Below are positions 22,801 to 43,530 of a DNA stretch of 64,000 bases, piece after piece. The position numbers were made by a program, and so were the translations under genes. The notes beneath the pieces were generated by a model, which saw only the letters and a list, made by a program, of their open reading frames with translations, was not told where the DNA came from and ran no database searches. Position 1 is the first letter of the stretch, and every line of letters starts with the position of its first letter. This DNA is from a virus: IMG/VR virus record IMGVR_UViG_3300045988_146982, positions 1 through 64,000 of that record. One strand, written 5' to 3'.

Positions 22801-23796
22801 AGTAGCAGACTGCCCCGATTTTTTCAACAAATCATATTCGATACGTGCACGCTTAATTTCATCGGCTAAAATTGGAAGGTTGTTAGAAATGGCAGAAAAA
22901 AACACTTTCGGACCGTAAGCCAAAGAAGGAAGTTCGCGTCCTACTTGCTGGATAGACATACTAAGTCCGTTCCACTGCTTGCCATAATTACCAACATTGC
23001 GTTGGTGATTGCCTATTGTCGCATCAAGCTCCTTAATTTTTGCGTCAGCTTGATTAATGGAAGTAAGGAGTTCTTTTCCAAAAGGAGAATTACGCTCTTC
23101 TTCCGTCAGTTCACGATAAGCAATTCGCATCCTTGACAAAGACTGCGACAGCCCTTTCATAGAAGTGGAGGCAACATTATCCAACTTGACATTATTATTC
23201 AGAGTTTGCCGTATCTCTGCCAAAGCCTCTTTGTGCGTCAGCAAGGAATTGTTTAGCTGTTCAAGCCGTTTTTGTTGAGCAGAAGACAAGGAAGAATAAT
23301 CACCTTGTGACTTGTTGATTTTCTTGATTTCAACATTAATCAAACGGATAGCGTTCATTTCATCTATCATTCTCTTGACATTCTCTTCTCTTGTGCCAAG
23401 AATACCGTTTATCTCAGTTCTCAGGTCATCATAAGCCTTTGCTTGTGCTTGAATGCTTGCTGTTTCAGCTGTGTTTGTTTGTGTTGATGTATTTCCACTC
23501 TGTGTTGGAATCCCTGCTGGTTTAGAAACTTGTTCCTGCGCTTGAACAATCTTTTCAGTCGCCTTATTGATTCGGCTGGTTGAAAGCATGATTTTCGCTT
23601 CCGCTGCCGCTATTTTATCCACCAATACATCATATTGCCCAAGCAAAGAGGTAAGTTGTGATTGCAATCCTTTCGCTATATCAATATCCACTTTAATATT
23701 AATACCCATCAATGCTTTTTTGACATTTTCTATCTCGTTCTTCAGTTTGCGCAACTTCTGAACATCACTGTCTACATTTGAAATAATGCCTGCCAT
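19804..23796 (-). CDS. tail tape measure protein
   Basis: 1330 aa, long coiled coils and a Gly-rich hydrophobic central segment (GITDALGGLGTTAAGVGQIMSGDIVGGAMSAVSG). Confidence 0.9.
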   Translation of the reverse strand: MAGIISNVDSDVQKLRKLKNEIENVKKALMGINIKVDIDIAKGLQSQLTSLLGQYDVLVDKIAAAEAKIMLSTSRINKATEKIVQAQEQVSKPAGIPTQSGNTSTQTNTAETASIQAQAKAYDDLRTEINGILGTREENVKRMIDEMNAIRLINVEIKKINKSQGDYSSLSSAQQKRLEQLNNSLLTHKEALAEIRQTLNNNVKLDNVASTSMKGLSQSLSRMRIAYRELTEEERNSPFGKELLTSINQADAKIKELDATIGNHQRNVGNYGKQWNGLSMSIQQVGRELPSLAYGPKVFFSAISNNLPILADEIKRARIEYDLLKKSGQSATPVWKQVASSLFSWQTALTVGITLLTLYGDKAVDWVAGLFNAKNVMKPLVDIQQQLNDVQLKGVQNAQSEITKLELLYKATQNASKPIRERKKAVDELQKSYPDFFKNLSEEEILTGKAADAYARLTSSIIASARARAAQDKMTENAKKILENEAKITEEYAKRENAQLKLDKQIELRNKIDREANPDIYAGRQMMVGAALGKVEEIDEGIAKLRRDIYELNKSQNELAQNIDVNDLIFNPNEDSSKIGEKERKRRQEEAENRLKQQEQLAEQLLSLRRKNQQDEINLMADGTEKKLAQIDLDYQKELDAIRKQEQEWTKANGGKLTQEQFIQISLSYSQAESKRDKSISDLNKEKFESDKKAWQEYFIEFGNYQEKRKNLVQKYDDEIAKLHTDSPEYAIKVAEKNQAVEQLDEQFGHSAKAMADLFEDAGNKSVSAIQTIIDKYETLVKYMSGTKESDGTNVTLDELKALGFTDKDIEKIEKGEISIKDVTDAIRGLKDELKGKSPWQAFVSDLEKGIKAIKKGGNDSKKVGQGITDIGNAVTSFAPALGEFGTNIANIFGASDSAITGITDALGGLGTTAAGVGQIMSGDIVGGAMSAVSGMSSVVSALDGLFGADYSHYNEMVEQYSLLNDIWDELIDKKLEYINTSYGAEANKVGEEALELAEKSIESYRILGKERLNAGSSAGSHSIGVRIRKGMSEQGWEEARKALNDEQWFKEISTGRMESLFDLSTEQLERLKSEAPTFWAKLDEDVRNYLDKIIDGEERIEEIHNQINEQLTQTTFDGVYSNFIDTLMDMKASSKDAAEDISEYFMRAMLSEQVGALYQDKLKKWYEKFAKGMEDGSLTESERNALNAEYMGYIEEAMKLRDELAAATGYDKISQESTSQSASSKGFQVMSQDTGEELNGRFTALQIAGEEIKNQNIIQSQSLNLLTVKADALLSINTETRNIADDTRDLIAQSYLELVQISENTGAIVKPIIQIQKDMAEVKNNTSKL

Positions 23797-23798
23797 AT

Positions 23799-24194
23799 CT
23801 ATAATTTTTTTTCTATTTGTCTACCTGCATACAAGATACCATTAGTCATAATAACTTCAAACCCTTTACTTTCGACATAGCTTGCATAAGGCTGACCGTT
23901 AGCCAAATAAAGCCCATCCTTTGATTTTTCGGAATAAATCAGAAGATTCTCTGTATTTCTTACCGCTTCGGAATGAGAACCGTCTGATTCCACCCACATA
24001 TCTACTATTTTCCCATTACGGACAACACATCCCCCATTTGCATTATTCAAGTTGCCAGTCCTATTTTCATAAGTCTTGTTAATCTTCGCATTTCGGGTGG
24101 CGTCTCTCCCTATTTGAGAAAGGGTATTATAATATCTATCGTCTACACTTTCAAGTAACTCATCTAATCCAGATGTATCTCCTCTAAACTCCAT
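23799..24194 (-). CDS. HK97-gp10-like head-tail protein, paralog of 31771..32070
   Basis: Shares KDGL.L.N...YAS.VESKG..V....LYA with the 99-aa protein at 31771..32070. Confidence 0.55.
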   Translation of the reverse strand: MEFRGDTSGLDELLESVDDRYYNTLSQIGRDATRNAKINKTYENRTGNLNNANGGCVVRNGKIVDMWVESDGSHSEAVRNTENLLIYSEKSKDGLYLANGQPYASYVESKGFEVIMTNGILYAGRQIEKKL

Positions 24195-24260
24195 TATTTT
24201 TTCATTTGTGCTAAATTCGACAAATACAAGTTATCCAGCAATATTTCAAGTATTTGATAT

Positions 24261-24285
24261 GCGACAACGGAATAATTGTCGTGAA
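24261..24285. promoter_or_regulatory. CACGACAAT-N6-ATTGTCGTG family inverted repeat, copy d (imperfect left arm)
   Basis: GCGACAAC ggaata ATTGTCGTGAA, centred ~44 bp upstream of the -7 box at 24313. Confidence 0.5.
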
Positions 24286-24312
24286 ATAATTGGAAATGAT
24301 TGATTTTTGAGA

Positions 24313-24320
24313 TATTTTTG
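24313..24320 (+). promoter_or_regulatory. Bacteroides-type -7 promoter box TATTTTTG
   Basis: Matches TAnnTTTG, 30 nt upstream of ATG 24350. Confidence 0.55.
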
Positions 24321-24349
24321 CAAACGTTTAAGTTAATAAATGTACTGTC

Positions 24350-25240
24350 ATGAAAAATACACTGCTTCTGATATTGTCAATATTTGCTTTTTCAAGTTGC
24401 AATAAGTCATATAAATATGTGGAAACGGTTAAAGAAAAGTCATTATTCAGCAACTCTTACAATGAGAAGGAGGAGGAACCTAAGACGATAAGCTCAAAGA
24501 ATGATTCCCTTGCGTATTTAGAAGCATATCAAAAATTTTGCATTTCTCAAAAAGTTTATAAAGATATGACTAATCAAGGAATAGAGTTTGTTAATATTCC
24601 GATAAAATTCTCACTGTACAACTCAAACGGTGAAAAAGTAAATCCGTATATAAACCAATCAACCCTTGACAATATAAAAAATAATGTTATGTCTTTAGAT
24701 GATAACATTGGAAAAACAATATCGGACATAAAAAAAGAAAAACAAAATCCTATTGATTCTATAACAGTAAAAAAAATATCCTCTTTATTTACATTTAACA
24801 AGGACGAATTTGACCCACGTGAACTAACATGGATTAAACCAAAATCTGCTCCCCAATATACCAACCAGAATGGAATATATTGTTATTTTATGAAAGATAT
24901 TGATGGGGTATCAAACTTTAGACTCAGAATACAATATTATTCTGACGATTGGTTATTCATTCGCAAATATCAATTTTCTATTGACAATAAAGCTTATGAA
25001 TTTATCCCCAATAATGTAGAAACTGATTCAGGTAATGGAGGATATATATGGGAATGGTGTGATGAAAATATCCATTCCAATAATGACATTGAATTAATAA
25101 AGGCACTTTCTAATGCTAAAACTGCAAAAATAAAATTTATTGGAAGGCAATATCACGATATAAAAACCATATCACAAAAACAGATTAAAGGAATAAAAGA
25201 TGCCGTAAACTTATATCTCGCAATGGGAGGGAGTTTGTAA
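24350..25240 (+). CDS. lipoprotein (moron, opposite strand)
   Basis: Signal peptide plus lipobox MKNTLLLILSIFAFSSCNK; AT-rich; own promoter and terminator. Confidence 0.75.
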   Translation: MKNTLLLILSIFAFSSCNKSYKYVETVKEKSLFSNSYNEKEEEPKTISSKNDSLAYLEAYQKFCISQKVYKDMTNQGIEFVNIPIKFSLYNSNGEKVNPYINQSTLDNIKNNVMSLDDNIGKTISDIKKEKQNPIDSITVKKISSLFTFNKDEFDPRELTWIKPKSAPQYTNQNGIYCYFMKDIDGVSNFRLRIQYYSDDWLFIRKYQFSIDNKAYEFIPNNVETDSGNGGYIWEWCDENIHSNNDIELIKALSNAKTAKIKFIGRQYHDIKTISQKQIKGIKDAVNLYLAMGGSL

Positions 25241-25252
25241 TATTCATATTAA

Positions 25253-25278
25253 GCGCACCCCAACCTAATGAGGTGCGC
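25253..25278. terminator. stem-loop between convergent genes
   Basis: GCGCACC-12 nt-GGTGCGC between 24350..25240 (+) and 25287..26054 (-). Confidence 0.5.
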
Positions 25279-25286
25279 ATTATTAT

Positions 25287-26054
25287 TTAAGCAGCATCTT
25301 TACCTAAGAACTTCTCTACAAAGTAAATCTGCCCTTTGCCAGTAACTTTTGTAGTAGTAGTTACCAATACAGAACCATCCGGCTTAGTGATTGATGTTTT
25401 CTTCAATTCAAAAAGCCCCAATTTCATGGCTTTCTGTGTCGGTTGATTGTAGTAGTCACCTTTTTGGCAAAGGTAGCCGTTTTCACGCATCCAGCTAAAC
25501 AAACGGTTCTGACCGATATTCACTCCATTTTGTTGCAGTATCTTTGCTAATTCAGCAACCAAGCAAGAACGTTGAGAAGTTGAAACGGCATCGGCAAAAA
25601 GGACTTTAGGTGCATCTTTCTGAATCTTCTGTTCGGCTTCGATACGCTTCTGTTTTTCTTCTTTCAAGTTGGTTGCAAGCTGAATCAGAAAATCGGGTGA
25701 GGTCAAAGCCTTTTCAAGTGTATCGCTGGTCATGTATGCACCATGTTTGCGGATTGAGGGCAAAACTTCATCGCAAACCCAATCTTGGAACTTTTCGGCA
25801 TCCGGCAATTTAGATTTCATAGTTAAACGATAAACCTCGCTTTCCTTGCCGTACTTTATGTCTTGTACACCGCCATTTGTGGGGGTCGGCAAAATAACGA
25901 CCCCTTTACAGTGTTGATTTACAGCATCGGCAGGGCTGCTATACCCAAGGGCTTTTGCAACATCTGCCAAACAAAACAACGGTTCTTCATTCTCATTCAT
26001 AGCAATTCTTACTTTTCCGAACTGCTCATTTTGGAAAATCTGAATATTATTCAT
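25287..26054 (-). CDS. antirepressor (Bro-N domain plus KilAC-like C-terminal domain)
   Basis: N-terminal FQNEQFGKVRIAMNENEEPLFCLADVAKALGY is Bro-N-like; ORF 25287..26108, likely start ATG 26054. Confidence 0.75.
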   Translation of the reverse strand: MNNIQIFQNEQFGKVRIAMNENEEPLFCLADVAKALGYSSPADAVNQHCKGVVILPTPTNGGVQDIKYGKESEVYRLTMKSKLPDAEKFQDWVCDEVLPSIRKHGAYMTSDTLEKALTSPDFLIQLATNLKEEKQKRIEAEQKIQKDAPKVLFADAVSTSQRSCLVAELAKILQQNGVNIGQNRLFSWMRENGYLCQKGDYYNQPTQKAMKLGLFELKKTSITKPDGSVLVTTTTKVTGKGQIYFVEKFLGKDAA

Positions 26055-26212
26055 ACTTTTACACAGTTTTAAAAATTGAACCCCACCAAAGGACGCTCCT
26101 AACTTCATCCGATGGCGGGGTTTATACTTTTCAGCTGTTAGGATAGCTGCGTTATTTCTGTTTGCGAATTTACCACTAACCGATTGCGTGACCTAAAAAG
26201 TGTCGTGCGTAG

Positions 26213-26238
26213 TCACGGCAATCAATCTATTGTCGTAA
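26213..26238. promoter_or_regulatory. CACGACAAT-N6-ATTGTCGTG family inverted repeat, copy e (degenerate)
   Basis: TCACGGCAAT caatct ATTGTCGTAA upstream of the antirepressor gene. Confidence 0.4.
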
Positions 26239-26358
26239 ATTCGTTGCAAACTTATCTTATAATCGTGTGAAAGAAGAATTAGCGCCCATTGGGTTCGTGA
26301 CATCAAAGCTATTGTCACAAAATAATTGGCGGTTCTCTAATTCTATGCTGTTTCATAC

Positions 26359-26526
26359 TCATTTCTTTAATACTTCATCAATCATATTACGAAGTTCTTT
26401 TAATTCTTCTTCGGTCAATCCGTACACATTACCCAATGCAGAAGGTTTCTCTATTTTAAGAGCGTATTTTACCCCCCCCTGTTGCTTTTCTATTGGTATG
26501 ATACCGATACTAAATCGTTTACTCAT
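26359..26526 (-). CDS. small hypothetical protein (55 aa) containing a G8 tract
   Basis: My translation: MSKRFSIGIIPIEKQQGGVKYALKIEKPSALGNVYGLTEEELKELRNMIDEVLKK; C8 on the plus strand at 26472-26479. Confidence 0.45.
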   Translation of the reverse strand: MSKRFSIGIIPIEKQQGGVKYALKIEKPSALGNVYGLTEEELKELRNMIDEVLKK

Positions 26527-26618
26527 TTCTTGTTACTTTTAAGTTTATTACTATGTTTCTAATCTCTGATTTGGTAGCTTGATTTGGCGGTGGTCTGATA
26601 TTGAGGTTCATAATCGTG

Positions 26619-27107
26619 TTAATAAGCCATTGCATCATATACCACACTAAGTTTCTCGTAAAACTCTTGTTCTGCTTCTTTGCTCATTTTGGCTCTCATA
26701 AAGTCCCTACAAGCACGGACAAGTTTCACGAACAAAACCTTTTCAATCGGTTTATATGTTCTTATATCATTGATACCTAATGTAGCCGTTTTAACTCTTG
26801 GTATATAACTGTTGATGATACGGTAGTGACTGTTTTCTAATATCTTACCATTGGATTTAATACCGTTGAAATAGTATTTGCCTTTTACTTTTGCTATCCA
26901 ATCATTTATCAGAATATTTCGGAAGCGTTTTTCTTTATCGTCTTGAAAAGGATACACACTTCTATCACAATAGACTCTTGTAGCCGAAACAAGCTCTAAA
27001 AATACAACTTCATTAAATGGCATATAAGGTTGAAACTCTTTACATAATCTAATCAGTTGTAGTTGCTGCTTTATGTTCAATTTTTCAAAATACATTTTTG
27101 TATTCAT
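26619..27107 (-). CDS. hypothetical protein
   Basis: 162-aa ORF in the leftward operon of the island. Confidence 0.6.
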   Translation of the reverse strand: MNTKMYFEKLNIKQQLQLIRLCKEFQPYMPFNEVVFLELVSATRVYCDRSVYPFQDDKEKRFRNILINDWIAKVKGKYYFNGIKSNGKILENSHYRIINSYIPRVKTATLGINDIRTYKPIEKVLFVKLVRACRDFMRAKMSKEAEQEFYEKLSVVYDAMAY

Positions 27108-27120
27108 AATTTCTATATTT

Positions 27121-27192
27121 TATGTGTTTATACTATCTTTGTGACTAAATTCGTAGTGCGACATAATCGCATTATGTGTTTATACTATTTTG
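27121..27192. repeat. two copies of the ~20-nt operator-like repeat TATGTGTTTATACTAT(C)TTTG
   Basis: 27121-27141 and 27173-27192; further copies at 27812-27831 and 61206-61219. Confidence 0.7.
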
Positions 27193-27226
27193 AGCGCATT
27201 GCCTGTGAAGGTGGTGCGCTCTTTGC

Positions 27227-27466
27227 TTACCACTGTTTTACCTGTTCTTTCAATTCATCATATTTGCCGTTCATCAGCATTTCAACTTCACGATGAAAGT
27301 TTATATCAGTCAGACGAAACTCTACTAAAGCACGCTTGTACGCATCGCCCTTTTGATGAGTATTAATAAGGCGCATCATCTGTGTGCTATCCAAACCATA
27401 CTTGTTTTTGCGATTAAGGTTTGTAACCCTGCGTATATCGCTTTCTCTTAGTTCAATTGTTGCCAT
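27227..27466 (-). CDS. hypothetical protein
   Basis: ORF 27227..27505; ATG 27466 (MATIELRESD) follows the upstream stop at 27469. Confidence 0.55.
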   Translation of the reverse strand: MATIELRESDIRRVTNLNRKNKYGLDSTQMMRLINTHQKGDAYKRALVEFRLTDINFHREVEMLMNGKYDELKEQVKQW

Positions 27467-27468
27467 AA

Positions 27469-27798
27469 TCAAGCTATCTTTATAAGGTTGCACTTTTTGA
27501 AACATCTATACTCTTCTTTTTCAGTGTCCCAATACACTTGCAGATTATCATTCAGTTTTCTGCCTGTACCTTTCACCTCACCGATAAGATTCTCTTTGAG
27601 AGTGCCAAAGGCTTGACGTAACGTGCCGTCAGTCTTTTTGAAGTAGAACTCTACTATCTTCACTTTCATCTCACCTTTCAACTTCAAATTAGCCCATGCG
27701 CATTTTAACGCTTCACTCATTGAATAACCGTTCTTGCGAACAAACTGCCATGCTAAACTCATGACCTCTTTCATCTGACTTCTAAATTTTGTGCTCAT
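27469..27798 (-). CDS. conserved early protein, paralog of 60861..61187
   Basis: Roughly two thirds of residues look identical by eye to the 108-aa protein at 60861..61187 (EVMSLAWQFV.KNGY.MSEA.K.AWANLKLKGEMK.KIV.FYFKK.DG). Confidence 0.7.
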   Translation of the reverse strand: MSTKFRSQMKEVMSLAWQFVRKNGYSMSEALKCAWANLKLKGEMKVKIVEFYFKKTDGTLRQAFGTLKENLIGEVKGTGRKLNDNLQVYWDTEKEEYRCFKKCNLIKIA

Positions 27799-27811
27799 AC
27801 TACTTATGTTT

Positions 27812-27831
27812 TATGTGTTAATACTATTTTG
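27812..27831. repeat. operator-like repeat, copy 3
   Basis: TATGTGTTAATACTATTTTG in the 5' leader of 27469..27798. Confidence 0.6.
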
Positions 27832-27847
27832 TTGTACTTTCATGATG

Positions 27848-27855
27848 CAAACATA
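27848..27855 (-). promoter_or_regulatory. -7 promoter box TATGTTTG (minus strand)
   Basis: Matches TAnnTTTG ~50 nt upstream of ATG 27798. Confidence 0.55.
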
Positions 27856-27918
27856 CTACTTTAATAGTATAATCCAAAAAGAAAAGAACTATTTAATTAG
27901 TATATTAACCTTATTTAA

Positions 27919-27934
27919 TACTATTATAATAGTA
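27919..27934. promoter_or_regulatory. perfect 16-bp palindrome TACTATTATAATAGTA between divergent promoters (operator candidate)
   Basis: Between 27798 (-) and 27982 (+); the half-site TACTATT recurs in other early promoter regions. Confidence 0.55.
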
Positions 27935-27981
27935 CAATACACAAAGAGACGTACCTTTGTATAAAATTAAAGTACACGATT

Positions 27982-28260
27982 ATGAATCTAAGAATTACCG
28001 AACACTGCAAAATGCAAGGCATCACCTTACAGGAATTAGCTGATAAAATGGGGGTAGCCCGTTCGACATTAGCTAATACATTATCAAAAGGCAATCCTAC
28101 CATTGAAACCCTATCCAAAATAGCGGACGCTCTCGGAGTTGAAGTAACAGACCTATTTGAAAAATCTTCCGATGAAGTTATAGGAGTTGTCCGAATTGGA
28201 GATAGCACTCACGTTATCAATAGTAAGGAGGATATTAAGAAGTTAGCGGAAAAATTATAA
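27982..28260 (+). CDS. XRE/Cro-CI family HTH repressor
   Basis: ITLQELADKMGVARSTLANTLSKGNPTIETLSKIADALGVEVTDLF is a classic HTH_3 motif. Confidence 0.85.
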   Translation: MNLRITEHCKMQGITLQELADKMGVARSTLANTLSKGNPTIETLSKIADALGVEVTDLFEKSSDEVIGVVRIGDSTHVINSKEDIKKLAEKL

Positions 28261-28291
28261 ACTTAACTTAATAAAATAAGGAGGTAATACT

Positions 28292-28501
28292 ATGAGCGAA
28301 AAAAAATTCAAAGAATCTGATGTAGTAATAAATACACAAAATGGGAAGGAGTATTATATTACTCAGATAGAAAAAGTGTATGATGCAGATTTAAAACATT
28401 CAGTTCCTACGGGATATGCTGAATGCCGTCCTAATAATTTAGATGATAATCTGCCCGATTATAATAGATTCACTATTGACATTTTAGAACTAAAAAAATA
28501 A
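28292..28501 (+). CDS. hypothetical protein
   Basis: 69-aa ORF preceded by a strong SD, AAGGAGGT, 7 nt before the ATG. Confidence 0.55.
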   Translation: MSEKKFKESDVVINTQNGKEYYITQIEKVYDADLKHSVPTGYAECRPNNLDDNLPDYNRFTIDILELKK

Positions 28502-28505
28502 AAAT

Positions 28506-28709
28506 ATGGAAAAGAAATATATTATAAAAGGAGTTTTAAATTCTTCTGTGCTATCTTTAAACTCTTATGGAACATACTGCTTAACAAATATTTCAGATAT
28601 ATACCACGAGGCAGAAAAAATTAAATTCTTTGATTCAAAAGAAGATGCGGAAAGCTACATTCTACAAAATAAACTTTCCCCAGTCACCATATTGGAAATT
28701 TTCATATAA
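28506..28709 (+). CDS. hypothetical protein
   Basis: 67-aa ORF, followed by a terminator. Confidence 0.5.
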   Translation: MEKKYIIKGVLNSSVLSLNSYGTYCLTNISDIYHEAEKIKFFDSKEDAESYILQNKLSPVTILEIFI

Positions 28710-28713
28710 TAGT

Positions 28714-28735
28714 AAAGCCGGATTCCTCCGGCTTT
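28714..28735. terminator. stem-loop terminator
   Basis: AAAGCCGGA-ttcc-TCCGGCTTT right after stop 28709. Confidence 0.7.
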
Positions 28736-28744
28736 AACTTTACT

Positions 28745-28951
28745 TTACCCATTAGCATTTCCCATATAAGTCTTACGAGAAACCTGCTTATTCCAACTCG
28801 TTCCATTCTTGTTGAAATTTCCCAAGTACCGCCCTGTAATCCGATTCACAAGATTATTAGGATTACTTGCATCACTTCCATAACGTCTTTCTGCGATTCT
28901 ATTCGCTTGTCGGGCTATTTCCCAACCTGATTTAGTTTTTCTTCTTTTGAC
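28745..28951 (-). other. 68-codon stop-to-stop ORF without a canonical start; first sense codon is GTC
   Basis: My translation: VKRRKTKSGWEIARQANRIAERRYGSDASNPNNLVNRITGRYLGNFNKNGTSWNKQVSRKTYMGNANG; no ATG/GTG/TTG in the first 34 codons. Confidence 0.3.
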
Positions 28952-28996
28952 TCAGCTTTTAATTTCAAAAAGTTAAACAATATAATTTCGCCATAT

Positions 28997-29245
28997 CTAT
29001 TTCTTTTTCCTACGATTAGCCAATTCCTTACCACTGATTCTATTCACTTTCTGACCACCATATACTGCGTGTAATTTATCCCGTTGCATCATCAGCAGAT
29101 TCCGATAAGGGATAATCTCAAACACTTCTGTATAACTCAGATGCAACGTGTCAATCAAATGGGCTATCTGCCCGAAGAACGTTGTGTTTCCTACTGTTTC
29201 GGTTTTGCTGCCAGCATCGACACGTTCCTCATCGAGCTGACACAC
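28997..29245 (-). CDS. tail assembly chaperone, -1 frame extension (T part of a G/GT pair)
   Basis: -1 frame relative to 29191..29577, overlapping it by 55 nt; A-AAA-C slip site at ~29202-29207. Confidence 0.6.
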   Translation of the reverse strand: MCQLDEERVDAGSKTETVGNTTFFGQIAHLIDTLHLSYTEVFEIIPYRNLLMMQRDKLHAVYGGQKVNRISGKELANRRKKK

Positions 29246-29577
29246 TGAAAAGCCGAAATATCCATCATAGAGAAACAGACTTCCAAGGCATCTTTGACTT
29301 CTTCAAAAGTGCCGTTCTCCAATTCTTTGACCAAACTATCATTCCCGCAGATGAAGCATGAAATACCTTTCAGCATATCTTCAGTAGCTTCAGTAAGCTC
29401 TTTAATAGCCTCCATGATATTATCTCCTCGCAGGGCGATATTGGAAAAATGATGAATGGCACGACAGATAACTTTAATTGTAGGCGGTTTGATGGTATAA
29501 ACGATTCCACCTATCTCTACATTTTTAAAATCCAGCCCTAACAAGGCGTCAGAAACCGTTTTTGCTGCTTGATTCAT
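29191..29577 (-). CDS. tail assembly chaperone (G-like)
   Basis: 128-aa ORF directly downstream of the major tail protein. Confidence 0.65.
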   Translation of the reverse strand: MNQAAKTVSDALLGLDFKNVEIGGIVYTIKPPTIKVICRAIHHFSNIALRGDNIMEAIKELTEATEDMLKGISCFICGNDSLVKELENGTFEEVKDALEVCFSMMDISAFQCVSSMRNVSMLAAKPKQ

Positions 29578-29584
29578 ATTCTTA

Positions 29585-29617
29585 AACTAAAAGAGGGAAT
29601 GGCGCATATCCATTCCC
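29585..29617 (-). terminator. 8-bp-stem hairpin after the tail-protein extension (attenuator/terminator)
   Basis: GGGAATGG-7 nt-CCATTCCC, then CTCTTTTAG on the minus strand. Confidence 0.5.
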
Positions 29618-29624
29618 CCGGTTA

Positions 29625-29837
29625 TCACTCTTGTACTTTTACCAATGTTATCTCTTTTTTAAGAGTGGTATCAACTTCAGAAGGAGTGGTTTTAATATCT
29701 CCTGACTGAGTGACGTACCCCACTTTCGACACTTCATAGTGAACGGTAGCTCCAGCATTCACCTGCTTTGACTTGACCGTTACACCGTCCAGCTTTACGG
29801 TCGCATCGGAAGGAGTAGGTACAATGGTTACTATAGT
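29625..29837 (-). CDS. in-frame post-TGA extension of the major tail protein encoding a PEGA/Ig-like domain
   Basis: 70 sense codons in frame after TGA 29838-29840: TIVTIVPTPSDATVKLDGVTVKSKQVNAGATVHYEVSKVGYVTQSGDIKTTPSEVDTTLKKEITLVKVQE; no Met codon and no start near its 5' end. Confidence 0.55.
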   Translation of the reverse strand, partial: TIVTIVPTPSDATVKLDGVTVKSKQVNAGATVHYEVSKVGYVTQSGDIKTTPSEVDTTLKKEITLVKVQE

Positions 29838-30392
29838 TCATGCCTGCAAAGCTTTAATCTGCCCCTCTTCGTAGTTATACTCAGAAGAAACACCTTCAAT
29901 TCCCGGTTCCTGCACCAAGCCTTTTACAGCGATTGCAATTGCCTTATCCGTATTGGCTTCACGGGAAACAATACGGCATTTTGGGAAGATGAACCAGACA
30001 TCATCATCGGTCAGACAGAACAATGCTTTGTTGATAATAACTTTATCCAAAGCACGCTTCCAACCCACATCTTTAGATGTTGCCTGAATAACATCGCCAC
30101 CCATGAACGCTTTCTTTGTCTTCCAGTCATATTGTCCGATAGAGAAAGTGGGTGATACTTCTCCCGGCACATCATCGAAACGGTAATTCTTTCCCGTTAA
30201 TTGGTTCTTGTACCCAGTGACGGAGGCTTCCGTTTCCTCAATCTGCCACGTTTCCCCGTGTACATTCAAAACCTCATCTTTCGCTTTGATAGCGGCTTGA
30301 ATCAAAGTCTTTGCGATTTCGGGGGTAATGTCTGCCGTTACCTTATCAATATCGGCAAACAAGATTCTTTTTATTCCTACTGCTGAAATCAT
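29838..30392 (-). CDS. major tail protein (by position and size)
   Basis: 184 aa, between the connector genes and the chaperone pair. Confidence 0.55.
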   Translation of the reverse strand: MISAVGIKRILFADIDKVTADITPEIAKTLIQAAIKAKDEVLNVHGETWQIEETEASVTGYKNQLTGKNYRFDDVPGEVSPTFSIGQYDWKTKKAFMGGDVIQATSKDVGWKRALDKVIINKALFCLTDDDVWFIFPKCRIVSREANTDKAIAIAVKGLVQEPGIEGVSSEYNYEEGQIKALQA

Positions 30393-30396
30393 AATC

Positions 30397-30792
30397 CTAT
30401 AATTTTACATTTATTACTTTAAATAAAATTCTCACATTCACGTAATGGCATTTCAAAGCTGTATCCGCTTCCGTGCCAATTGATTCGATAGAGTAACGAT
30501 AGGTTGTACCGTCATAGGTACTTACTACATCATCAAGCAGCTTGCCAGCCTTTCTTTCAAGTTCGTTAAGCCGGATTGTGTTCGCTTCATTCTCGCTTAA
30601 ATTGGGTACACATAGATTCACTTCTGCGAAAGATTTCTTCCAATACTTTCCCGGCTGTTGTTTCTTCGTGTGGATGACAATCCTTTCGGACTTCAATTCA
30701 CCCGTCAACGTTTCACCATCAGGCACTATATCTATTCCGAAAGCCTTGCAGTCCCGATAGAGAATGTTTCCTATGTCGGTAGTTACTATCAT
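30397..30792 (-). CDS. tail terminator / tail completion-like protein
   Basis: ORF 30397..30807; ATG 30792 makes an ATGA overlap with the upstream stop. Confidence 0.45.
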   Translation of the reverse strand: MIVTTDIGNILYRDCKAFGIDIVPDGETLTGELKSERIVIHTKKQQPGKYWKKSFAEVNLCVPNLSENEANTIRLNELERKAGKLLDDVVSTYDGTTYRYSIESIGTEADTALKCHYVNVRILFKVINVKL

Positions 30793-31379
30793 TCCACAAT
30801 CTCCCAATCTTCTGCAAATACATCACTGATAGACGGAACCCATGAATCAGCGCGTCCGGTATTCTCGTTGTAGATAAGACACTGGCTTGTATAGTCAATA
30901 AATCCCTTACCTTTCAGAATAAGGTCTTTTGCCGATTGGGGAAGCGATTGCATCTTAGGGATGATGTCGCTTTCGATATGAGCTGGCACTTGTTTGAATA
31001 CCATCAAACCTTTACCGTTCCAACCACTTCTACGAACAGCCCCACCTTGTTTTAACACTTCGATAGCATCACCGAAGCACATTACGGATGAATCGTCGGC
31101 TTTATCGTATGTTTTCTCAAAGATATCCGGCTTACAAGGATAAAACTCACCGTTTACTCCCTTGATGATGTAATCGCCATAGCTTGCAAGCATTTTGCCT
31201 TCAAGTGTTTCGATGTACACTCCAAGATAAGGCTCGTTGGTGTTGCCATGCTCATCTATACCGAAATCGGGATTGTGTTTCGGTACGGGAGTTCCACCCA
31301 TGAAATCACATACAGCATCGAAATTATCTACTTTAAGCTGGACAGCTTCTATTACTACAGGTTTCTTTCTGTACTTCAT
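30789..31379 (-). CDS. two-domain protein: N-terminal small beta domain plus C-terminal DUF2829 (Tad2-like)
   Basis: C-terminal half FGDAIEVLKQGGAVRRSGWNGKGLMVF...SWVPSISDVFAEDWEIVE matches my memory of the DUF2829 signature. Confidence 0.55.
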   Translation of the reverse strand: MKYRKKPVVIEAVQLKVDNFDAVCDFMGGTPVPKHNPDFGIDEHGNTNEPYLGVYIETLEGKMLASYGDYIIKGVNGEFYPCKPDIFEKTYDKADDSSVMCFGDAIEVLKQGGAVRRSGWNGKGLMVFKQVPAHIESDIIPKMQSLPQSAKDLILKGKGFIDYTSQCLIYNENTGRADSWVPSISDVFAEDWEIVE

Positions 31380-31381
31380 AA

Positions 31382-31774
31382 TTATAAGGATTGAATACGT
31401 TTAGATAATACCGCCTGATACCGAAGCATCAAATCATATTGTTCTCTCAGCAACTCACGTTGATTTGGGTCGGTGACAATAGTTTCAAACTTATCGGTCA
31501 TAATAAATTCGTTCAGTTTATTACAGTGTTCAACCAATTCTCCATGCTCAATAGCTAAACGGTCCTTAAATGTATCAGCTACTTTGTATGCCTTTTCAAA
31601 CACATCTTTAGGAAGCCATGATTCAACACCATCATCATATTTGGTATGATAACCTTCGATGGACTGTTCTTCCTTTGACAATCTTTCACCCACTGCAATA
31701 AGGCAGTTTTTGTCAGCTTCGCCCATTGTCATAGGTTCTGCTTCAATCTGTTTTGTTCCAATGTACTTTTTCAT
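31382..31774 (-). CDS. hypothetical phage protein
   Basis: 130 aa; N-terminal MKKYIGTKQIEAEPMT...SWLPKDVFEKAY resembles a widespread phage family of unknown function. Confidence 0.55.
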   Translation of the reverse strand: MKKYIGTKQIEAEPMTMGEADKNCLIAVGERLSKEEQSIEGYHTKYDDGVESWLPKDVFEKAYKVADTFKDRLAIEHGELVEHCNKLNEFIMTDKFETIVTDPNQRELLREQYDLMLRYQAVLSKRIQSL

Positions 31775-33494: not shown

Positions 33495-34616
33495 TTATGC
33501 TGATTGGATGGATGCAATTTCGCTCAAATCGAAATTGGTTATCAAATCTGGATTGGAAATCTGCGGAATCCACTCTGCCGTATATTCCATGTAGCGACCG
33601 TTTTTGTCACGGTAGTTGGAGATAAGCATCTGCCCCTCTGACGGGATATAAGTACGTCCTTGTACCGGGTCTGTCGCTTCATACGGGGTATGATGGCGCA
33701 TATAACCAATGTTGTCAGAAGGCAACAGAGTAATACGGTTATCCGCGTAAATCTGCACGTTTTTTCCCGTCTGGTCTTTCACATAGTCCTCCTTGATTTC
33801 GATGCGAGGCAGACCGATGCCGGTGAACACTTCGGAAGCCAAAGAAGAGGAAACCAATCCCGTACTCAACTTCATTTCGTTGCTGCCGAGAATCATCTTG
33901 TACTGCTCACCAAATTCAGATGAACCAAGAATAAGCTTGTTGAAAGATGCACGGGTCATTATCATCTTGGCATAAATGCCATAGTCCGGTGCCAAGGAAT
34001 GAAGTTTCTCTCTCAAATAAGAGATAAACATATTCTTTCCGTCCACAACCACATCTCCACTTTTCGGCTTGATAAAATTGAACGGAAGGGTAATCTCCAG
34101 CAGTTTATTATTGGTCTGACCGGAAGTGATTGCAGCGTCTTTGTTGTAAACGGTGGCTTCACCAAGCATCAACAGCGCACCGACAATAATATCCATACGC
34201 TTGTGGGCAGCAAGGGTAATCTGACGGTAGTCGTCTGCCAAGAAGTTTACAATCTCTTCCATTGCAGCCTTTTGGTCGGCTGGCTTAGCTGCATTGAACT
34301 TGTCAATCAAATCCTGCAATTCGGAAAGACGGTCAATAGACATCTGATAAGCATCACCCAAATAGGCAATCTCACCATATCCTGAACCGATATTCCTGCG
34401 TTCACGAATGGGTTTCTCTCCAAAACGTGAATTGATAGAGCCGGCCATAACTCCGGTTACAGAACCGATATAATCCTTGAACACACGAGTAGTTACTCTG
34501 CGGAAAGTAAGATACTGTTGCCAATAGATTGTGTCCTTGCGTGTCTGGTTCACACGTCTGATGATAGCGGAAACGATGTTCGCATCATCGAATAATGTTT
34601 GAATCGTTAAAAACAT
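33495..34616 (-). CDS. major capsid protein (lambda gpE-like by size and order)
   Basis: 373 aa following the scaffold and decoration-like genes. Confidence 0.7.
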   Translation of the reverse strand: MFLTIQTLFDDANIVSAIIRRVNQTRKDTIYWQQYLTFRRVTTRVFKDYIGSVTGVMAGSINSRFGEKPIRERRNIGSGYGEIAYLGDAYQMSIDRLSELQDLIDKFNAAKPADQKAAMEEIVNFLADDYRQITLAAHKRMDIIVGALLMLGEATVYNKDAAITSGQTNNKLLEITLPFNFIKPKSGDVVVDGKNMFISYLREKLHSLAPDYGIYAKMIMTRASFNKLILGSSEFGEQYKMILGSNEMKLSTGLVSSSLASEVFTGIGLPRIEIKEDYVKDQTGKNVQIYADNRITLLPSDNIGYMRHHTPYEATDPVQGRTYIPSEGQMLISNYRDKNGRYMEYTAEWIPQISNPDLITNFDLSEIASIQSA

Positions 34617-34627
34617 ATCCTACCTCC

Positions 34628-35224
34628 TTACTCGTTAAACTCAAACCATCCCTTCATGTTGGCTTTATCGTTCTCAGAGAACGGCATAACCAATTTTGAA
34701 GGTTCAATCTCTGCGGCTGTACGAAGCAATGAAACCAATGTGATTCCGTCCTCAACCTTTGTACGGTTAAACAGAGCCGAATTAGCTACATGCTTTTGTT
34801 TTAAACCATCAACTGCAACCGCATTGAATAATACGGCATCTTTGGCGATATTCTCACCAAAAGCAGCCTTAATAGTCAATACATCATAACCGGCATTAGA
34901 CTTATCAATTGCCGTTACTTCTGCACCTTTCTTACCGCTTCCGACAAACATACCCACATAAGCCAAAGAGTTCTTGGCTACTTTGATAGACAAAGCCTCT
35001 CCACCAGTGGTATAGGCTTCCGCAACTCTCACATTGATTACCGCATAAGCGAACTTGTTTTTCAAGTCCGCATAAATCGGTGTAAATCCGGGAAGAAAAC
35101 TTCCCACTACTAGGTTCTGCGTATCAAGTTTGAACGGACCACGTCTACGAATACCGGTCTGGACATCGTAGCGTTCCTCTTGCTCAACGGGCGGAACCAA
35201 GTCATACTTAAATCCTGCTGACAT
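34628..35224 (-). CDS. head decoration-like protein
   Basis: 198 aa between scaffold and capsid genes. Confidence 0.45.
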   Translation of the reverse strand: MSAGFKYDLVPPVEQEERYDVQTGIRRRGPFKLDTQNLVVGSFLPGFTPIYADLKNKFAYAVINVRVAEAYTTGGEALSIKVAKNSLAYVGMFVGSGKKGAEVTAIDKSNAGYDVLTIKAAFGENIAKDAVLFNAVAVDGLKQKHVANSALFNRTKVEDGITLVSLLRTAAEIEPSKLVMPFSENDKANMKGWFEFNE

Positions 35225-43426: not shown

Positions 43427-43458
43427 AATCGTGTCAAATTTAAATTAATACTCAATAG

Positions 43459-43530
43459 TTGCGGGGGGCTGAATCGAACAACCGACCTTCACCAAGTCAA
43501 AGTGAAAAGCTACCACTGCTACACCCCGCG
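43459..43530 (-). tRNA. tRNA with initiator-type body and GAC (Val) anticodon
   Basis: CGCGGGG-TG-TAGC-AGTGGTA-GCTT-T-TCACT-TTGACTT-GGTGA-AGGTC-GGTTG-TTCGATT-CAGCC-CCCCGCA-A; C1.A72 mismatch, A11:T24. Confidence 0.65.

What the first reader, a model, noticed from the sequence alone, without database searches (positions are those of the whole stretch)
29625..29840. PEGA/Ig-like domain encoded in frame directly behind the TGA stop of the major tail protein
I walked the codons individually. After TGA (29838-29840), 70 sense codons continue in the same frame to TGA 29625-29627. They encode TIVTIVPTPSDATVKLDGVTVKSKQVNAGATVHYEVSKVGYVTQSGDIKTTPSEVDTTLKKEITLVKVQE, a PEGA/Ig-like beta-sandwich pattern (P.dA.V.lDG...G....Y.VSK.GY). 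The stretch has no Met and no usable start near its 5' end. The next gene starts only at 29577, and the strong hairpin follows this extension (29595-29617) rather than the TGA. Ig-like decorations on tail tube proteins are usually added by programmed frameshifting. Here the geometry instead implies UGA readthrough, giving a minor long isoform. Other TGA codons in the phage are clearly real stops (ATGA junctions), so this is not genome-wide recoding.
Basis: partly seen in the sequence, partly recalled or inferred. Interest (0 to 1): 0.7.

Follow-up and report, generated by a model that had tools for sequence, protein, structure and literature searches.

The report
Leaky stop adds tail decoration domain
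In this common human-gut Bacteroides phage, the tail-tube gene ends in a conserved TGA stop followed in frame by a start-less, selection-constrained surface domain, so some ribosomes most likely read through the stop; this route is well known in the RNA phage Qβ but I found no report of it for a tailed DNA phage.

Summary
A 184-codon ORF (30392..29841, minus strand) ends at TGA 29840..29838. Seventy sense codons follow in frame to TGA-TAA, and there is no start codon near their 5' end.

The stretch is a real domain. It matches Pfam PF25641 (E 3.6e-14) and the crAss001 head-fibre protein gp29.

The upstream protein has a tail-tube fold and sits in the tail-tube position.

Comparative evidence favours programmed UGA readthrough:
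- All 176 domain-bearing relatives tabulated, from three tube lineages 27-45% identical to each other, have TGA with the domain in frame 0. Two further lineages looked at singly show the same layout.
- The junction is always NNA-TGA-ACN.
- Protein-level constraint starts at the first codon after TGA. Codon +1 is always Thr and codon +3 always Val, each with several synonymous codons.
- The extension's dN/dS is 0.11-0.24.
- No start codon is conserved.
- Close relatives without the domain end in TAA (58 of 68).

Rare natural variants carry TGG or TTA in place of TGA, so a constitutive fusion exists in natural populations. I found no suppressor tRNA, no conserved RNA structure and no genome-wide recoding. 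No protein-level data exist.

I rate it a new variant of a known kind, and it is testable in the cultured phage BS-TP2.

The parts
29841..30392 (-). Major tail (tube) protein gene, 184 codons (20.4 kDa short form)
   Evidence: ORF. It matches phrog_14600. An AlphaFold model of it matches the chain-J subunits of mycobacteriophage Bxb1, which appear in both the connector and the tail-tip maps, and a chain of the phage Douge connector, at prob 0.91-0.99. Tail tubes of Milano, Mu and YSD1 follow lower in the list at low probability. In BS-TP2 the gene order is major head protein, connector genes, a DUF3168-like protein, this gene, a chaperone-like gene, then tape measure.
29835..29843 (-). Recoding site GCA-TGA-ACT; the leaky stop is 29840..29838
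   Evidence: TGA is present in 176 of 176 domain-bearing loci tabulated and in 119 of 119 pattern matches. Across 30 distinct haplotypes the -1 codon is always NNA (GCA, GTA or ACA) and the +1 codon is always ACN. L389 has AAA-TGA-ACT. Rare variants carry TGG or TTA at this codon.
29628..29837 (-). 70-codon extension encoding an HFD-like (PF25641) beta-sandwich domain. The readthrough product is 255 aa (28.0 kDa if Trp is inserted)
   Evidence: Pfam hit at E 3.6e-14. Match to crAss001 gp29 at E 1.5e-8. AlphaFold models it as an all-beta domain starting at residue 183. dN/dS is 0.11-0.24. No conserved start codon. Masses.
29622..29627 (-). Tandem stops TGA-TAA that end the extension
29593..29619 (-). 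Terminator-like hairpin followed by a T-run. It lies after the extension and before the next gene
   Evidence: 10-pair stem with 6 G-C pairs, then TTTTAGTTTA. In L088 the extension is likewise followed by a G+C-rich inverted repeat and a T-run, read by eye from the sequence and not scanned.
29191..29577 (-). Next gene: 128-aa tail-assembly-chaperone-like protein. It is context only and not part of the recoded unit
   Evidence: It matches phrog_13669. A -1 frame ORF overlaps it and runs to 28997.

Best explanation
The gene at 30392..29841 encodes the tail-tube subunit of a temperate Bacteroides/Phocaeicola siphophage that is 96.7% identical in DNA over this region to the cultured phage BS-TP2.

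Most ribosomes terminate at UGA 29840..29838 and release the 184-aa tube protein. A minority decode that UGA with a near-cognate tRNA, most likely tRNA-Trp, and continue for 70 more codons. The result is a 255-aa isoform in which an HFD-like beta-sandwich domain hangs from the C-terminus of the tube subunit.

Both isoforms would co-assemble, giving a tail tube decorated below full occupancy. The likely role is weak binding to glycans, either host capsule or surface polysaccharide or gut mucus.

The signal appears to be only the short context (N)NA-UGA-ACN.

Shown here: the domain is real, it is in frame, it has no conserved start, it is under purifying selection from the first codon after the stop, and it is always paired with TGA.

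Inferred: that readthrough is the decoding event, which amino acid is inserted, how efficient it is, and what the domain does.
For: 1. The domain is real. Pfam PF25641 matches at E 3.6e-14 and crAss001 head-fibre protein gp29 at E 1.5e-8.

2. The upstream gene is a tail-tube protein, by fold and by gene order.

3. The layout is deeply conserved. The three tube lineages A, B and C are 27-45% identical to each other, and a further two divergent loci (L388, L389) show the same layout. All have NNA-TGA-ACN followed by the domain in frame 0. That holds for 176 of 176 loci, 119 of 119 pattern hits with TGA exactly 8 codons before the PSDATVKLDG motif, and L388/L389. L388 carries two tandem domains.

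4. Coding constraint starts immediately after TGA. Codon +1 is always Thr (ACT, ACA or ACC) and codon +3 is always Val (all four GTN codons).

5. The extension's dN/dS is 0.11-0.24, while dS reaches 0.37-1.8.

6. No ATG, GTG or TTG is conserved in the first 13 codons. Sporadic ones occur at positions 3, 4, 6 and 8, and further on at 14 and 16.

7. Relatives without the domain end in TAA 58, TAG 1 and TGA 9, and those nine TGA are backed up by a TAG three codons later. Within lineage B, alleles with and without the domain share the same tube sequence up to ...EEVK. They then read EA-TGA-domain, or three other residues (such as QGA or AGA) followed by TAA.

8. Natural TGG (Trp) variants from four samples and TTA (Leu) variants from three sequencing runs show that the fused protein occurs in natural phage populations.

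9. The terminator-like hairpin lies after the extension, so the extension belongs to the tube transcription unit.

10. The +4 base is A. By my recollection this is a weak RF2 termination context in E. coli and is also the context of the Qbeta leaky stop (UGA ACA); I did not check either point here.
Against: - There is no protein-level evidence. The BS-TP2 paper reports no proteomics or recoding.
- No stimulatory RNA structure was found. The consensus fold energy is -3 kcal/mol and the single-sequence z-score is -0.31. Efficiency would rest on a short context that has never been characterised in Bacteroides.
- The TGA, the -1 A and the extension probably move together as one homologous cassette. 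The many loci are therefore not independent observations. From the 3 of 20 third positions that never vary, I judge roughly 15% of synonymous sites in this region to be invariant, so TGA retention alone is only modestly significant.
- The invariant A-TGA also forms an ATG that overlaps the stop, so part of that conservation could have another cause.
- NCBI's pipeline annotates the stretch in Phocaeicola genomes as a separate 66-aa protein with an unusual start; the position corresponds to the ATT at codon 5.
- Constitutive TGG and TTA variants exist, so the stop is not indispensable.
Confidence: 0.75

Rival explanations
1. The 70 codons are a separate small gene. Its 66-70 aa HFD-like product would be translated on its own from a non-canonical or sporadic start (ATT at codon 5 in this lineage, GTG or ATG in some relatives), perhaps by termination-reinitiation after the tube gene.
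For: NCBI annotation calls a 66-aa 'HFD-like domain-containing protein' that starts at the position of the ATT codon, on 87 contigs. Gene callers used a GTG three codons after the TGA in L088. crAss001 gp29 is a free-standing protein with this domain.
Against: - No start codon is conserved. ATT occurs only in lineage A. The GTG at +3 is GTA, GTT or GTC in most haplotypes, while the Val it encodes is invariant.
- Thr at +1 and Val at +3 are under protein-level constraint upstream of every proposed start.
- Independent initiation would not require frame 0, a fixed 8-codon spacing or an exclusive TGA, yet all three hold in every locus examined.
- The residues right after the TGA align with the strand that opens the domain in gp29, and the AlphaFold model has a strand spanning residues 183-190.
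Confidence: 0.1
2. The TGA is a recent nonsense mutation, or a sequencing error, in what was an ordinary tube-domain fusion gene. On this view the extension is a decaying remnant.
For: Fused 255-aa versions with TGG exist. Three of the 119 pattern-matched loci show a shortened open frame of 22-61 codons.
Against: - TGA is present in about 300 independently assembled loci, including an isolate genome.
- TGA is shared by lineages whose extensions differ at dS>1, so it is ancestral.
- The extension's dN/dS within TGA-bearing lineages is 0.11-0.17 for lineages B and C, and 0.39 within the shallow window lineage.
- The frame is never broken by indels.
Confidence: 0.03
3. The conserved A-TGA is an ATGA start/stop overlap. 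Ribosomes would initiate at that ATG, one base before the stop and in another frame, and reach the extension by a +1 frameshift.
For: ATGAAC is invariant in all 14 aligned representatives. Several database proteins (P0121, P0122, P0124, P0126, P0288) start 'MNYS...' from this ATG and then join the extension frame, on contigs that presumably carry indels.
Against: - The ORF from that ATG is not conserved. It reads 'MN-stop' in many lineage-B phages (ATG AAC TGA) and has unrelated lengths elsewhere (read from the sequences).
- No conserved shift-prone site exists.
- Synonymous variation at codons +1 and +3 fits frame 0 and would change the amino acid in the ATG frame.
Confidence: 0.03
4. The UGA is decoded by a dedicated system: selenocysteine insertion, a phage or host suppressor tRNA, or a TGA-reassigned genetic code.
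For: Some gut phages, including crAss-like phages of Bacteroidales, reassign stop codons (PMC7886860, PMC9523058).
Against: - In the window, TGA terminates 18 of 69 long ORFs, often in ATGA overlaps or followed by a second stop.
- The only tRNA in the window is tRNA-Val(GAC). The first 50 kb of BS-TP2 has tRNA-Val and tRNA-Arg.
- No conserved hairpin lies 3' of the UGA, so there is no SECIS-like element.
- Rfam gives no hit.
- The natural sense variants are Trp and Leu, not Cys.
Confidence: 0.03

Closest known systems
Qbeta (Leviviridae) A1 readthrough protein
   Same: A virion structural protein whose UGA stop is occasionally read as Trp, at about 1 in 15 (PMC8067240). This gives a minor C-terminally extended isoform that co-assembles with the major form. 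No dedicated tRNA is involved. By my recollection the Qbeta context is also UGA followed by ACA.
   Different: Qbeta is a ssRNA phage of E. coli, the protein is the coat protein, and the extension is a different fold that is essential for infectivity. Here the phage is a dsDNA siphophage of Bacteroidales, the protein is the tail tube, the extension is an HFD-like domain, and it is dispensable in close relatives.
SPP1 gp17.1*, the Listeria phage A118/A500/PSA long tail proteins and Lactobacillus phage A2 (major tail or head proteins extended by programmed frameshifting)
   Same: A major tail protein made in two forms, the longer one carrying a C-terminal Ig-like or FN3 domain displayed on the tube. 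In SPP1 the short-to-long ratio is 3:1 and the domain is not needed for infectivity (PMC8718954, PMC5009743).
   Different: Those extensions lie in the +1 or -1 frame and need a shift site. Here the extension is in frame 0 behind a stop, so the recoding event is readthrough. Neither review mentions readthrough for such extensions.
Lambda gpV and T5 pb6 (tube proteins with a constitutive in-frame C-terminal Ig-like domain)
   Same: A tail-tube fold with a C-terminal Ig-like domain projecting outward. The rare TGG and TTA variants found here have exactly this architecture.
   Different: Those proteins have no stop codon between the domains, so every subunit is decorated. They use Big_2 domains, not PF25641.
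crAss001 head fibre dimer protein gp29 (PDB 7qof/8ckb; founding member of PF25641)
   Same: A homologous domain on the virion surface of another Bacteroides phage.
   Different: gp29 is a free-standing 122-aa capsid fibre protein. It is not attached to the tail tube and is not recoded.
Stop-codon reassignment in gut phages (crAss-like TAG-to-Gln; TGA-recoded phages)
   Same: In-frame stop codons within structural genes of phages that infect Bacteroidales.
   Different: Reassignment is genome-wide and is usually accompanied by suppressor tRNAs. Here a single site is involved, TGA is otherwise a normal stop, and there is no suppressor tRNA.

Membership tests
Programmed stop-codon readthrough (Qbeta A1 type) | A downstream ORF continues in the same frame directly after the stop and has no start codon of its own | tested here: met
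   The extension is in frame 0 in all 176 tabulated loci and all 119 pattern hits, and no start codon is conserved.
Programmed stop-codon readthrough (Qbeta A1 type) | The extension is under protein-level purifying selection, starting at the stop codon | tested here: met
   dN/dS is 0.11-0.24. Codons +1 (Thr) and +3 (Val) are invariant at the amino-acid level while using 3 and 4 synonymous codons.
Programmed stop-codon readthrough (Qbeta A1 type) | The identity of the stop codon and its immediate context are conserved | tested here: met
   NNA-TGA-ACN in 30 of 30 haplotypes of the full-length domain. 17 loci with the shorter extension have TGA-GCT. Relatives without the domain mostly use TAA.
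Programmed stop-codon readthrough (Qbeta A1 type) | The extended isoform is detected as a protein, and the residue inserted at the stop is identified | not testable with these tools
   No proteomic data are available. The BS-TP2 paper contains none.
Frameshift-extended major tail proteins (SPP1 gp17.1* type) | The upstream gene is the major tail or tube protein | tested here: met
   Foldseek matches to Bxb1 and Douge chains at prob 0.91-0.99. Gene order.
Frameshift-extended major tail proteins (SPP1 gp17.1* type) | The extension lies in the +1 or -1 frame and is reached through a slippery site | tested here: not met
   The extension is in frame 0. The site works like these systems in outcome but is not a member by mechanism.
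Pfam PF25641 Head_fiber_dimeric (HFD-like) domain | Score above the Pfam gathering threshold | tested here: met
   52.8 bits against a cut-off of 30, E 3.6e-14, covering profile positions 5-53 of 61. Match to gp29 in the PDB.
   The Pfam scan at E<=1 returned only PF25641.
Genome-wide TGA reassignment or suppressor-tRNA recoding | In-frame TGA in many genes, and/or a suppressor tRNA gene | tested here: not met
   TGA ends 18 of 69 long ORFs normally. There is no suppressor tRNA.
Bacterial selenocysteine insertion | A SECIS hairpin immediately 3' of the UGA | tested here: not met
   No conserved structure, z-score -0.31, and no Rfam hit.
Independent small gene (the 66-aa protein of NCBI annotation) | A conserved initiation codon at the 5' end of the coding constraint | tested here: not met
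   ATT occurs only in lineage A, and the constraint begins four codons upstream of it.

The most novel reading that the evidence does not exclude
A conserved 'leaky-TGA plus HFD-like domain' cassette, apparently exchanged between lineages, gives Bacteroidales siphophages a partly decorated tail tube through programmed UGA readthrough. This would be the first such recoding event described for a tailed dsDNA phage. It would also be a third route for adding Ig-like decorations, alongside in-frame fusion and frameshifting. It relies only on a short NNA-UGA-ACN context read by the host's own tRNA.
Probability: 0.7. Interest if true: 0.75.

Novelty: new variant of a known kind. Interest (0 to 1): 0.7.

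Why it matters
Two-isoform structural proteins are a classic way for phages to set the ratio of decorated to plain subunits. In tailed phages the reviews I read attribute this to frameshifting, and readthrough is a textbook case only for the RNA phage Qbeta.

If this site is confirmed, several things follow:

- Stop-codon readthrough would be shown to serve the same purpose in dsDNA phages.
- It would give a natural, compact readthrough context for Bacteroides, a phylum whose translation signals are atypical and poorly mapped.
- It would expose a systematic annotation error. The domain is left unannotated in BS-TP2 and is annotated in Phocaeicola genomes as a 66-aa protein with an unusual start.
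- The phage family is very common in the human gut. BS-TP2 was detected in 33.5% of 930 Chinese viromes (PMC12694917).
- The domain is a candidate adhesin for glycans or mucus.
- BS-TP2 and its host are in culture, so the prediction can be tested directly.

Tried and rejected
- **RNA stimulator or SECIS-like element 3' of the TGA.** RNAalifold on 14 diverse junctions gave -3 kcal/mol with no convincing covariation. The single-sequence fold has z = -0.31. Rfam gave no hit.
- **Suppressor tRNA.** None found.
- **Genome-wide recoding.** Rejected from stop-codon usage in the window.
- **Sequence-based naming of the 184-aa protein.** Pfam, NCBIfam and the PDB (single sequence and profile) gave nothing for it; the only PDB match was to the extension. 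PHROGs gave only families of unknown function.
- **Fold search with the two-domain model.** Inconclusive; the best hit was T5 pb6 at E 0.08. BFVD hits named tail proteins only weakly. The tube-only model gave the clear answer.
- **A second copy of the domain in the window,** for example in the head-fibre gene. None found. The head-fibre gene 34628..35224 matches PF11133 only.
- **ATGA-overlap start plus frameshift.** Rejected because that ORF is not conserved (sequences; codon table).
- **The 'W' at position 185 in database proteins as a code-4 gene-calling artefact.** This is true for at least one cluster member: P0283 ends '...QEW', so its terminal TGA was translated. The 255-aa members I checked do carry TGG in the DNA.
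- **Literature.** Searches for readthrough in tailed-phage tail or Ig-like extensions found no precedent. The library lacks most subscription-journal papers, so an earlier report cannot be excluded.
Full report
**1. The observation**

On the minus strand, an ATG-started ORF of 184 codons (30392..29841) ends at TGA 29840..29838. The same frame then stays open for 70 codons (29837..29628) and closes with TGA-TAA (29627..29622).

The only ATG/GTG/TTG-started ORF listed inside the stretch begins at the GTG at 29762 (codon 26). The next gene begins at 29577. A terminator-like hairpin (10-pair stem, then a T-run) lies at 29619..29593, after the extension.

An open run of 70 codons has about a 2% chance at this composition, so that alone proves little. 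The stretch is, however, a bona fide domain. It matches Pfam PF25641 'Head fiber dimeric protein-like domain' at E 3.6e-14 and 52.8 bits against a cut-off of 30. It also aligns with the solved crAss001 head-fibre protein gp29 (7qof/8ckb) at E 1.5e-8. PEGA was not matched. The domain is common as a tandem repeat in large proteins.

**2. What the upstream gene is**

Sequence libraries do not name the 184-aa protein. An AlphaFold model of it (pTM 0.73) matches the chain-J subunits that appear in both the connector and the tail-tip maps of mycobacteriophage Bxb1, and a chain of the phage Douge connector, at probability 0.91-0.99. Tail-tube proteins of Milano, Mu and YSD1 and Hcp follow lower in the list at low probability.

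The region is 96.7% identical to the cultured temperate Bacteroides salyersiae phage BS-TP2. In BS-TP2 the gene order is major head protein, connector genes, a DUF3168-like protein, this 'tail protein', a chaperone-like gene and then the tape measure. I accept it as the major tail (tube) protein. In BS-TP2 the 259-nt stretch behind the TGA is unannotated, yet it is open in the same way.

**3. Comparative test**

This is the decisive part.

*Close relatives.* Eighty IMG/VR contigs with 98-100% identical tube proteins, plus BS-TP2, all have TGA and 68-70 open codons.

*Relatives without the domain.* Tube proteins 77-92% identical lack the extension altogether. They end in TAA, with only 55-70 nt to the next gene.

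*Other lineages with the domain.* The domain reappears behind two much more distant tube-protein lineages, B and C (45% and 27-30% identical to the window protein). These occur in many gut viral contigs and in prophages of Paraprevotella clara, P. xylaniphila, a Prevotella species and an uncultured Bacteroides.

*Counts across fetched loci.*
- 176 of 176 domain-bearing loci have TGA as the tube stop with the domain in frame 0.
- An independent DNA-pattern scan gave 119 of 119 matches with TGA exactly eight codons before the PSDATVKLDG motif.
- Two further divergent loci show the same layout. L388 has GCA-TGA-ACT followed by two tandem domains, and L389 has AAA-TGA-ACT.
- Loci without the domain use TAA 58 times, TAG once and TGA nine times. 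Those nine TGA are followed by a TAG three codons later.
- In lineage B, alleles with and without the domain share the same tube sequence up to ...EEVK. They then read either EA-TGA-domain or three other residues (such as QGA or AGA) followed by TAA.

**4. Is the extension translated, and from where?**

Between lineages the extension's synonymous divergence is saturated (dS 1.2-1.8), while dN/dS is 0.16-0.24. Within lineages B and C, dN/dS is 0.11-0.17 at dS 0.37-0.66.

A codon-by-codon table over 30 distinct junction haplotypes shows:
- The -1 codon is always NNA (GCA, GTA or ACA).
- TGA is invariant.
- Codon +1 is always Thr, encoded by ACT, ACA or ACC.
- Codon +3 is always Val, encoded by all four GTN codons.

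Protein-level constraint therefore starts at the first codon after the stop.

No ATG, GTG or TTG is conserved in the first 13 codons. Sporadic ones occur at positions 3, 4, 6 and 8, and further on at 14 and 16, in different sublineages. The residues after the stop align with the strand that opens the domain in gp29, and in the AlphaFold model of a natural fused protein a strand spans residues 183-190.

These facts fit continuation of translation through the TGA. They do not fit independent initiation, which would constrain neither the frame, nor the 8-codon spacing, nor the stop codon's identity.

**5. Sense-codon relatives**

The protein database holds a 255-aa fused form (P0001). I read the DNA. 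Contigs from four samples carry TGG (Trp), and contigs from three sequencing runs carry TTA (Leu), at the stop position. At least one 'W' in that protein cluster is instead a code-4 gene-calling artefact (P0283 ends ...QEW).

These variants are rare: the fused cluster has 79 mixed members, against 2,874 for the 184-aa cluster. They are single-step derivatives inside the shallow window lineage. They show that a fully decorated tube occurs in nature and that Trp is acceptable at position 185. They do not make TGA a recent mutation, because TGA is shared by all the deep lineages.

**6. Mechanistic details tested**

- The window holds only tRNA-Val(GAC); the first 50 kb of BS-TP2 holds tRNA-Val and tRNA-Arg. 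Neither has a suppressor tRNA.
- TGA terminates 18 of 69 long ORFs in the window, so the code is standard.
- No conserved RNA structure follows the stop and Rfam finds nothing. This argues against a SECIS element or a hairpin stimulator.
- The signal therefore seems limited to NNA-UGA-ACN. From my own recollection, not tested here, A at +4 is a weak RF2 context in E. coli and Qbeta's leaky stop reads UGA-ACA.
- Of the TGA-terminated ORFs in the window, 4 of 18 have a second stop immediately behind, against 2 of 51 for TAA and TAG (Fisher p = 0.036). The extension itself ends TGA-TAA. This is a weak hint that UGA is generally somewhat leaky in this host.

**7. Rivals**

- *Separate small gene, as in NCBI's 66-aa annotation.* Disfavoured by the points in section 4. 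Confidence about 0.1.
- *Recent nonsense mutation or sequencing error.* Contradicted by sections 3 and 4. About 0.03.
- *ATGA overlap start plus +1 frameshift.* It would explain the invariant A-TGA. However, the ORF from that ATG is 'MN-stop' in many lineage-B phages, is unconserved elsewhere, and there is no shift site. About 0.03.
- *Selenocysteine, suppressor tRNA or reassigned code.* No supporting feature was found. About 0.03.

**8. Caveats**

The extension, the TGA and the junction are probably one homologous cassette that recombines between tube genes. The hundreds of loci therefore amount to a handful of independent observations. From the 3 of 20 third positions that never vary, I judge about 15% of synonymous sites in this region to be invariant, so TGA retention alone is only modestly significant. 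The strength of the case lies in the combination of a fixed frame, no start codon, constraint from codon +1, and the TGA-versus-TAA contrast on near-identical backgrounds. No protein data exist.

**9. Comparison with what is known**

In outcome this works like SPP1 gp17.1* and the long tail proteins of the Listeria and Lactobacillus phages: a minor tube isoform carrying an Ig-like domain. Those use +1 or -1 frameshifting (PMC8718954, PMC5009743), a defining feature that is not met here. In mechanism it works like Qbeta A1, where UGA is read as Trp about 1 time in 15 (PMC8067240), but in a dsDNA siphophage, on the tail, and with a different domain.

Six full-text searches, plus reading two reviews and the frameshift-prediction paper PMC10885494, found no description of readthrough-added decorations in tailed phages. 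The library is incomplete.

**10. Verdict**

The finding is real. It is a new variant of a known kind, and it can be tested directly in a cultured and highly prevalent gut phage (PMC12694917). Interest 0.7.

Noticed in passing
window 30789..31379 (-) and 31382..31774 (-): A Tad2-like (Thoeris anti-defence 2, PF11195, E 1e-18) protein and a crAss001_48/'Sequestin' (PF21825, E 3e-15) protein sit inside the head-tail connector module. In relatives L382, L386 and L387 the two are fused into one 237-aa gene, and L385 has only a 166-aa Tad2-like gene. This looks like a variable anti-defence slot among structural genes.
   Followed up: partly
window 29577..28997 (-), candidate slip site near 29205..29197: The 128-aa chaperone-like ORF is overlapped at its 3' end by a -1 frame ORF (82 aa, running to 28997). 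GCA GCA AAA CCG ('A AAA C') is a possible -1 slippery site, which resembles the usual G/GT tail-chaperone frameshift.
   Followed up: partly
window about 23800..28990: About 5 kb lies between the tail-chaperone genes and the next large minus-strand ORF (23796..19804, 1330 aa). It includes plus-strand genes such as an HTH protein at 27982..28260. In BS-TP2 the tape-measure gene starts 147 nt after the chaperone. L085-L088 also carry cargo at this position, for example HicA in L088.
   Followed up: no
window, whole (for example 30789, 40539, 58015 and 58957): Four of 18 TGA-terminated long ORFs have a second stop codon immediately after (TGA-TAG three times, TGA-TAA once). The figure for TAA- and TAG-terminated ORFs is 2 of 51 (Fisher p = 0.036). 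This may be a signature of generally leaky UGA in this host-phage system.
   Followed up: partly
L222, L223, L248, L250, L256, L258-L260 and others (28 lineage-C loci): A shorter 50-52 codon, Ser/Thr-rich extension follows TGA in frame. It shares only the first half (…KSKRVNAG..VNY) with the HFD-like domain and ends ...ETLSIL. The frame stays open across rather divergent subtypes, and the +1 codon is ACT or GCT. It may be a degenerate derivative or a different kind of readthrough tail.
   Followed up: partly
L388:72-1055 and L389:292-1050: Two further tube lineages show the same device. L388 has a 189-aa tube protein, then GCA-TGA-ACT, then two tandem HFD-like domains. L389 has a 179-aa tube protein, then AAA-TGA-ACT, then one domain. 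Gene callers started both extension ORFs at an internal GTG.
   Followed up: yes
window 43458..43530 (-): A tRNA-Val(GAC) gene lies inside the phage region. BS-TP2 has the same tRNA plus a tRNA-Arg(GCG).
   Followed up: no
window 34628..35224 (-): A head-fibre protein gene (PF11133, E 7.6e-31) lies just upstream of the 373-aa ORF (33495..34616) at the position of the major head protein gene in BS-TP2. It does not contain the PF25641 domain, so the tail extension is the only copy in the window.
   Followed up: yes
database proteins P0279 and P0280 (NCBI, Phocaeicola vulgatus and others) and P0121-P0126: Public annotation of this stretch is inconsistent. It appears as a 66-aa 'HFD-like domain-containing protein' whose first residue sits at the ATT codon, as 45-71 aa fragments from internal or out-of-frame starts, and it is left unannotated in BS-TP2.
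   Followed up: yes
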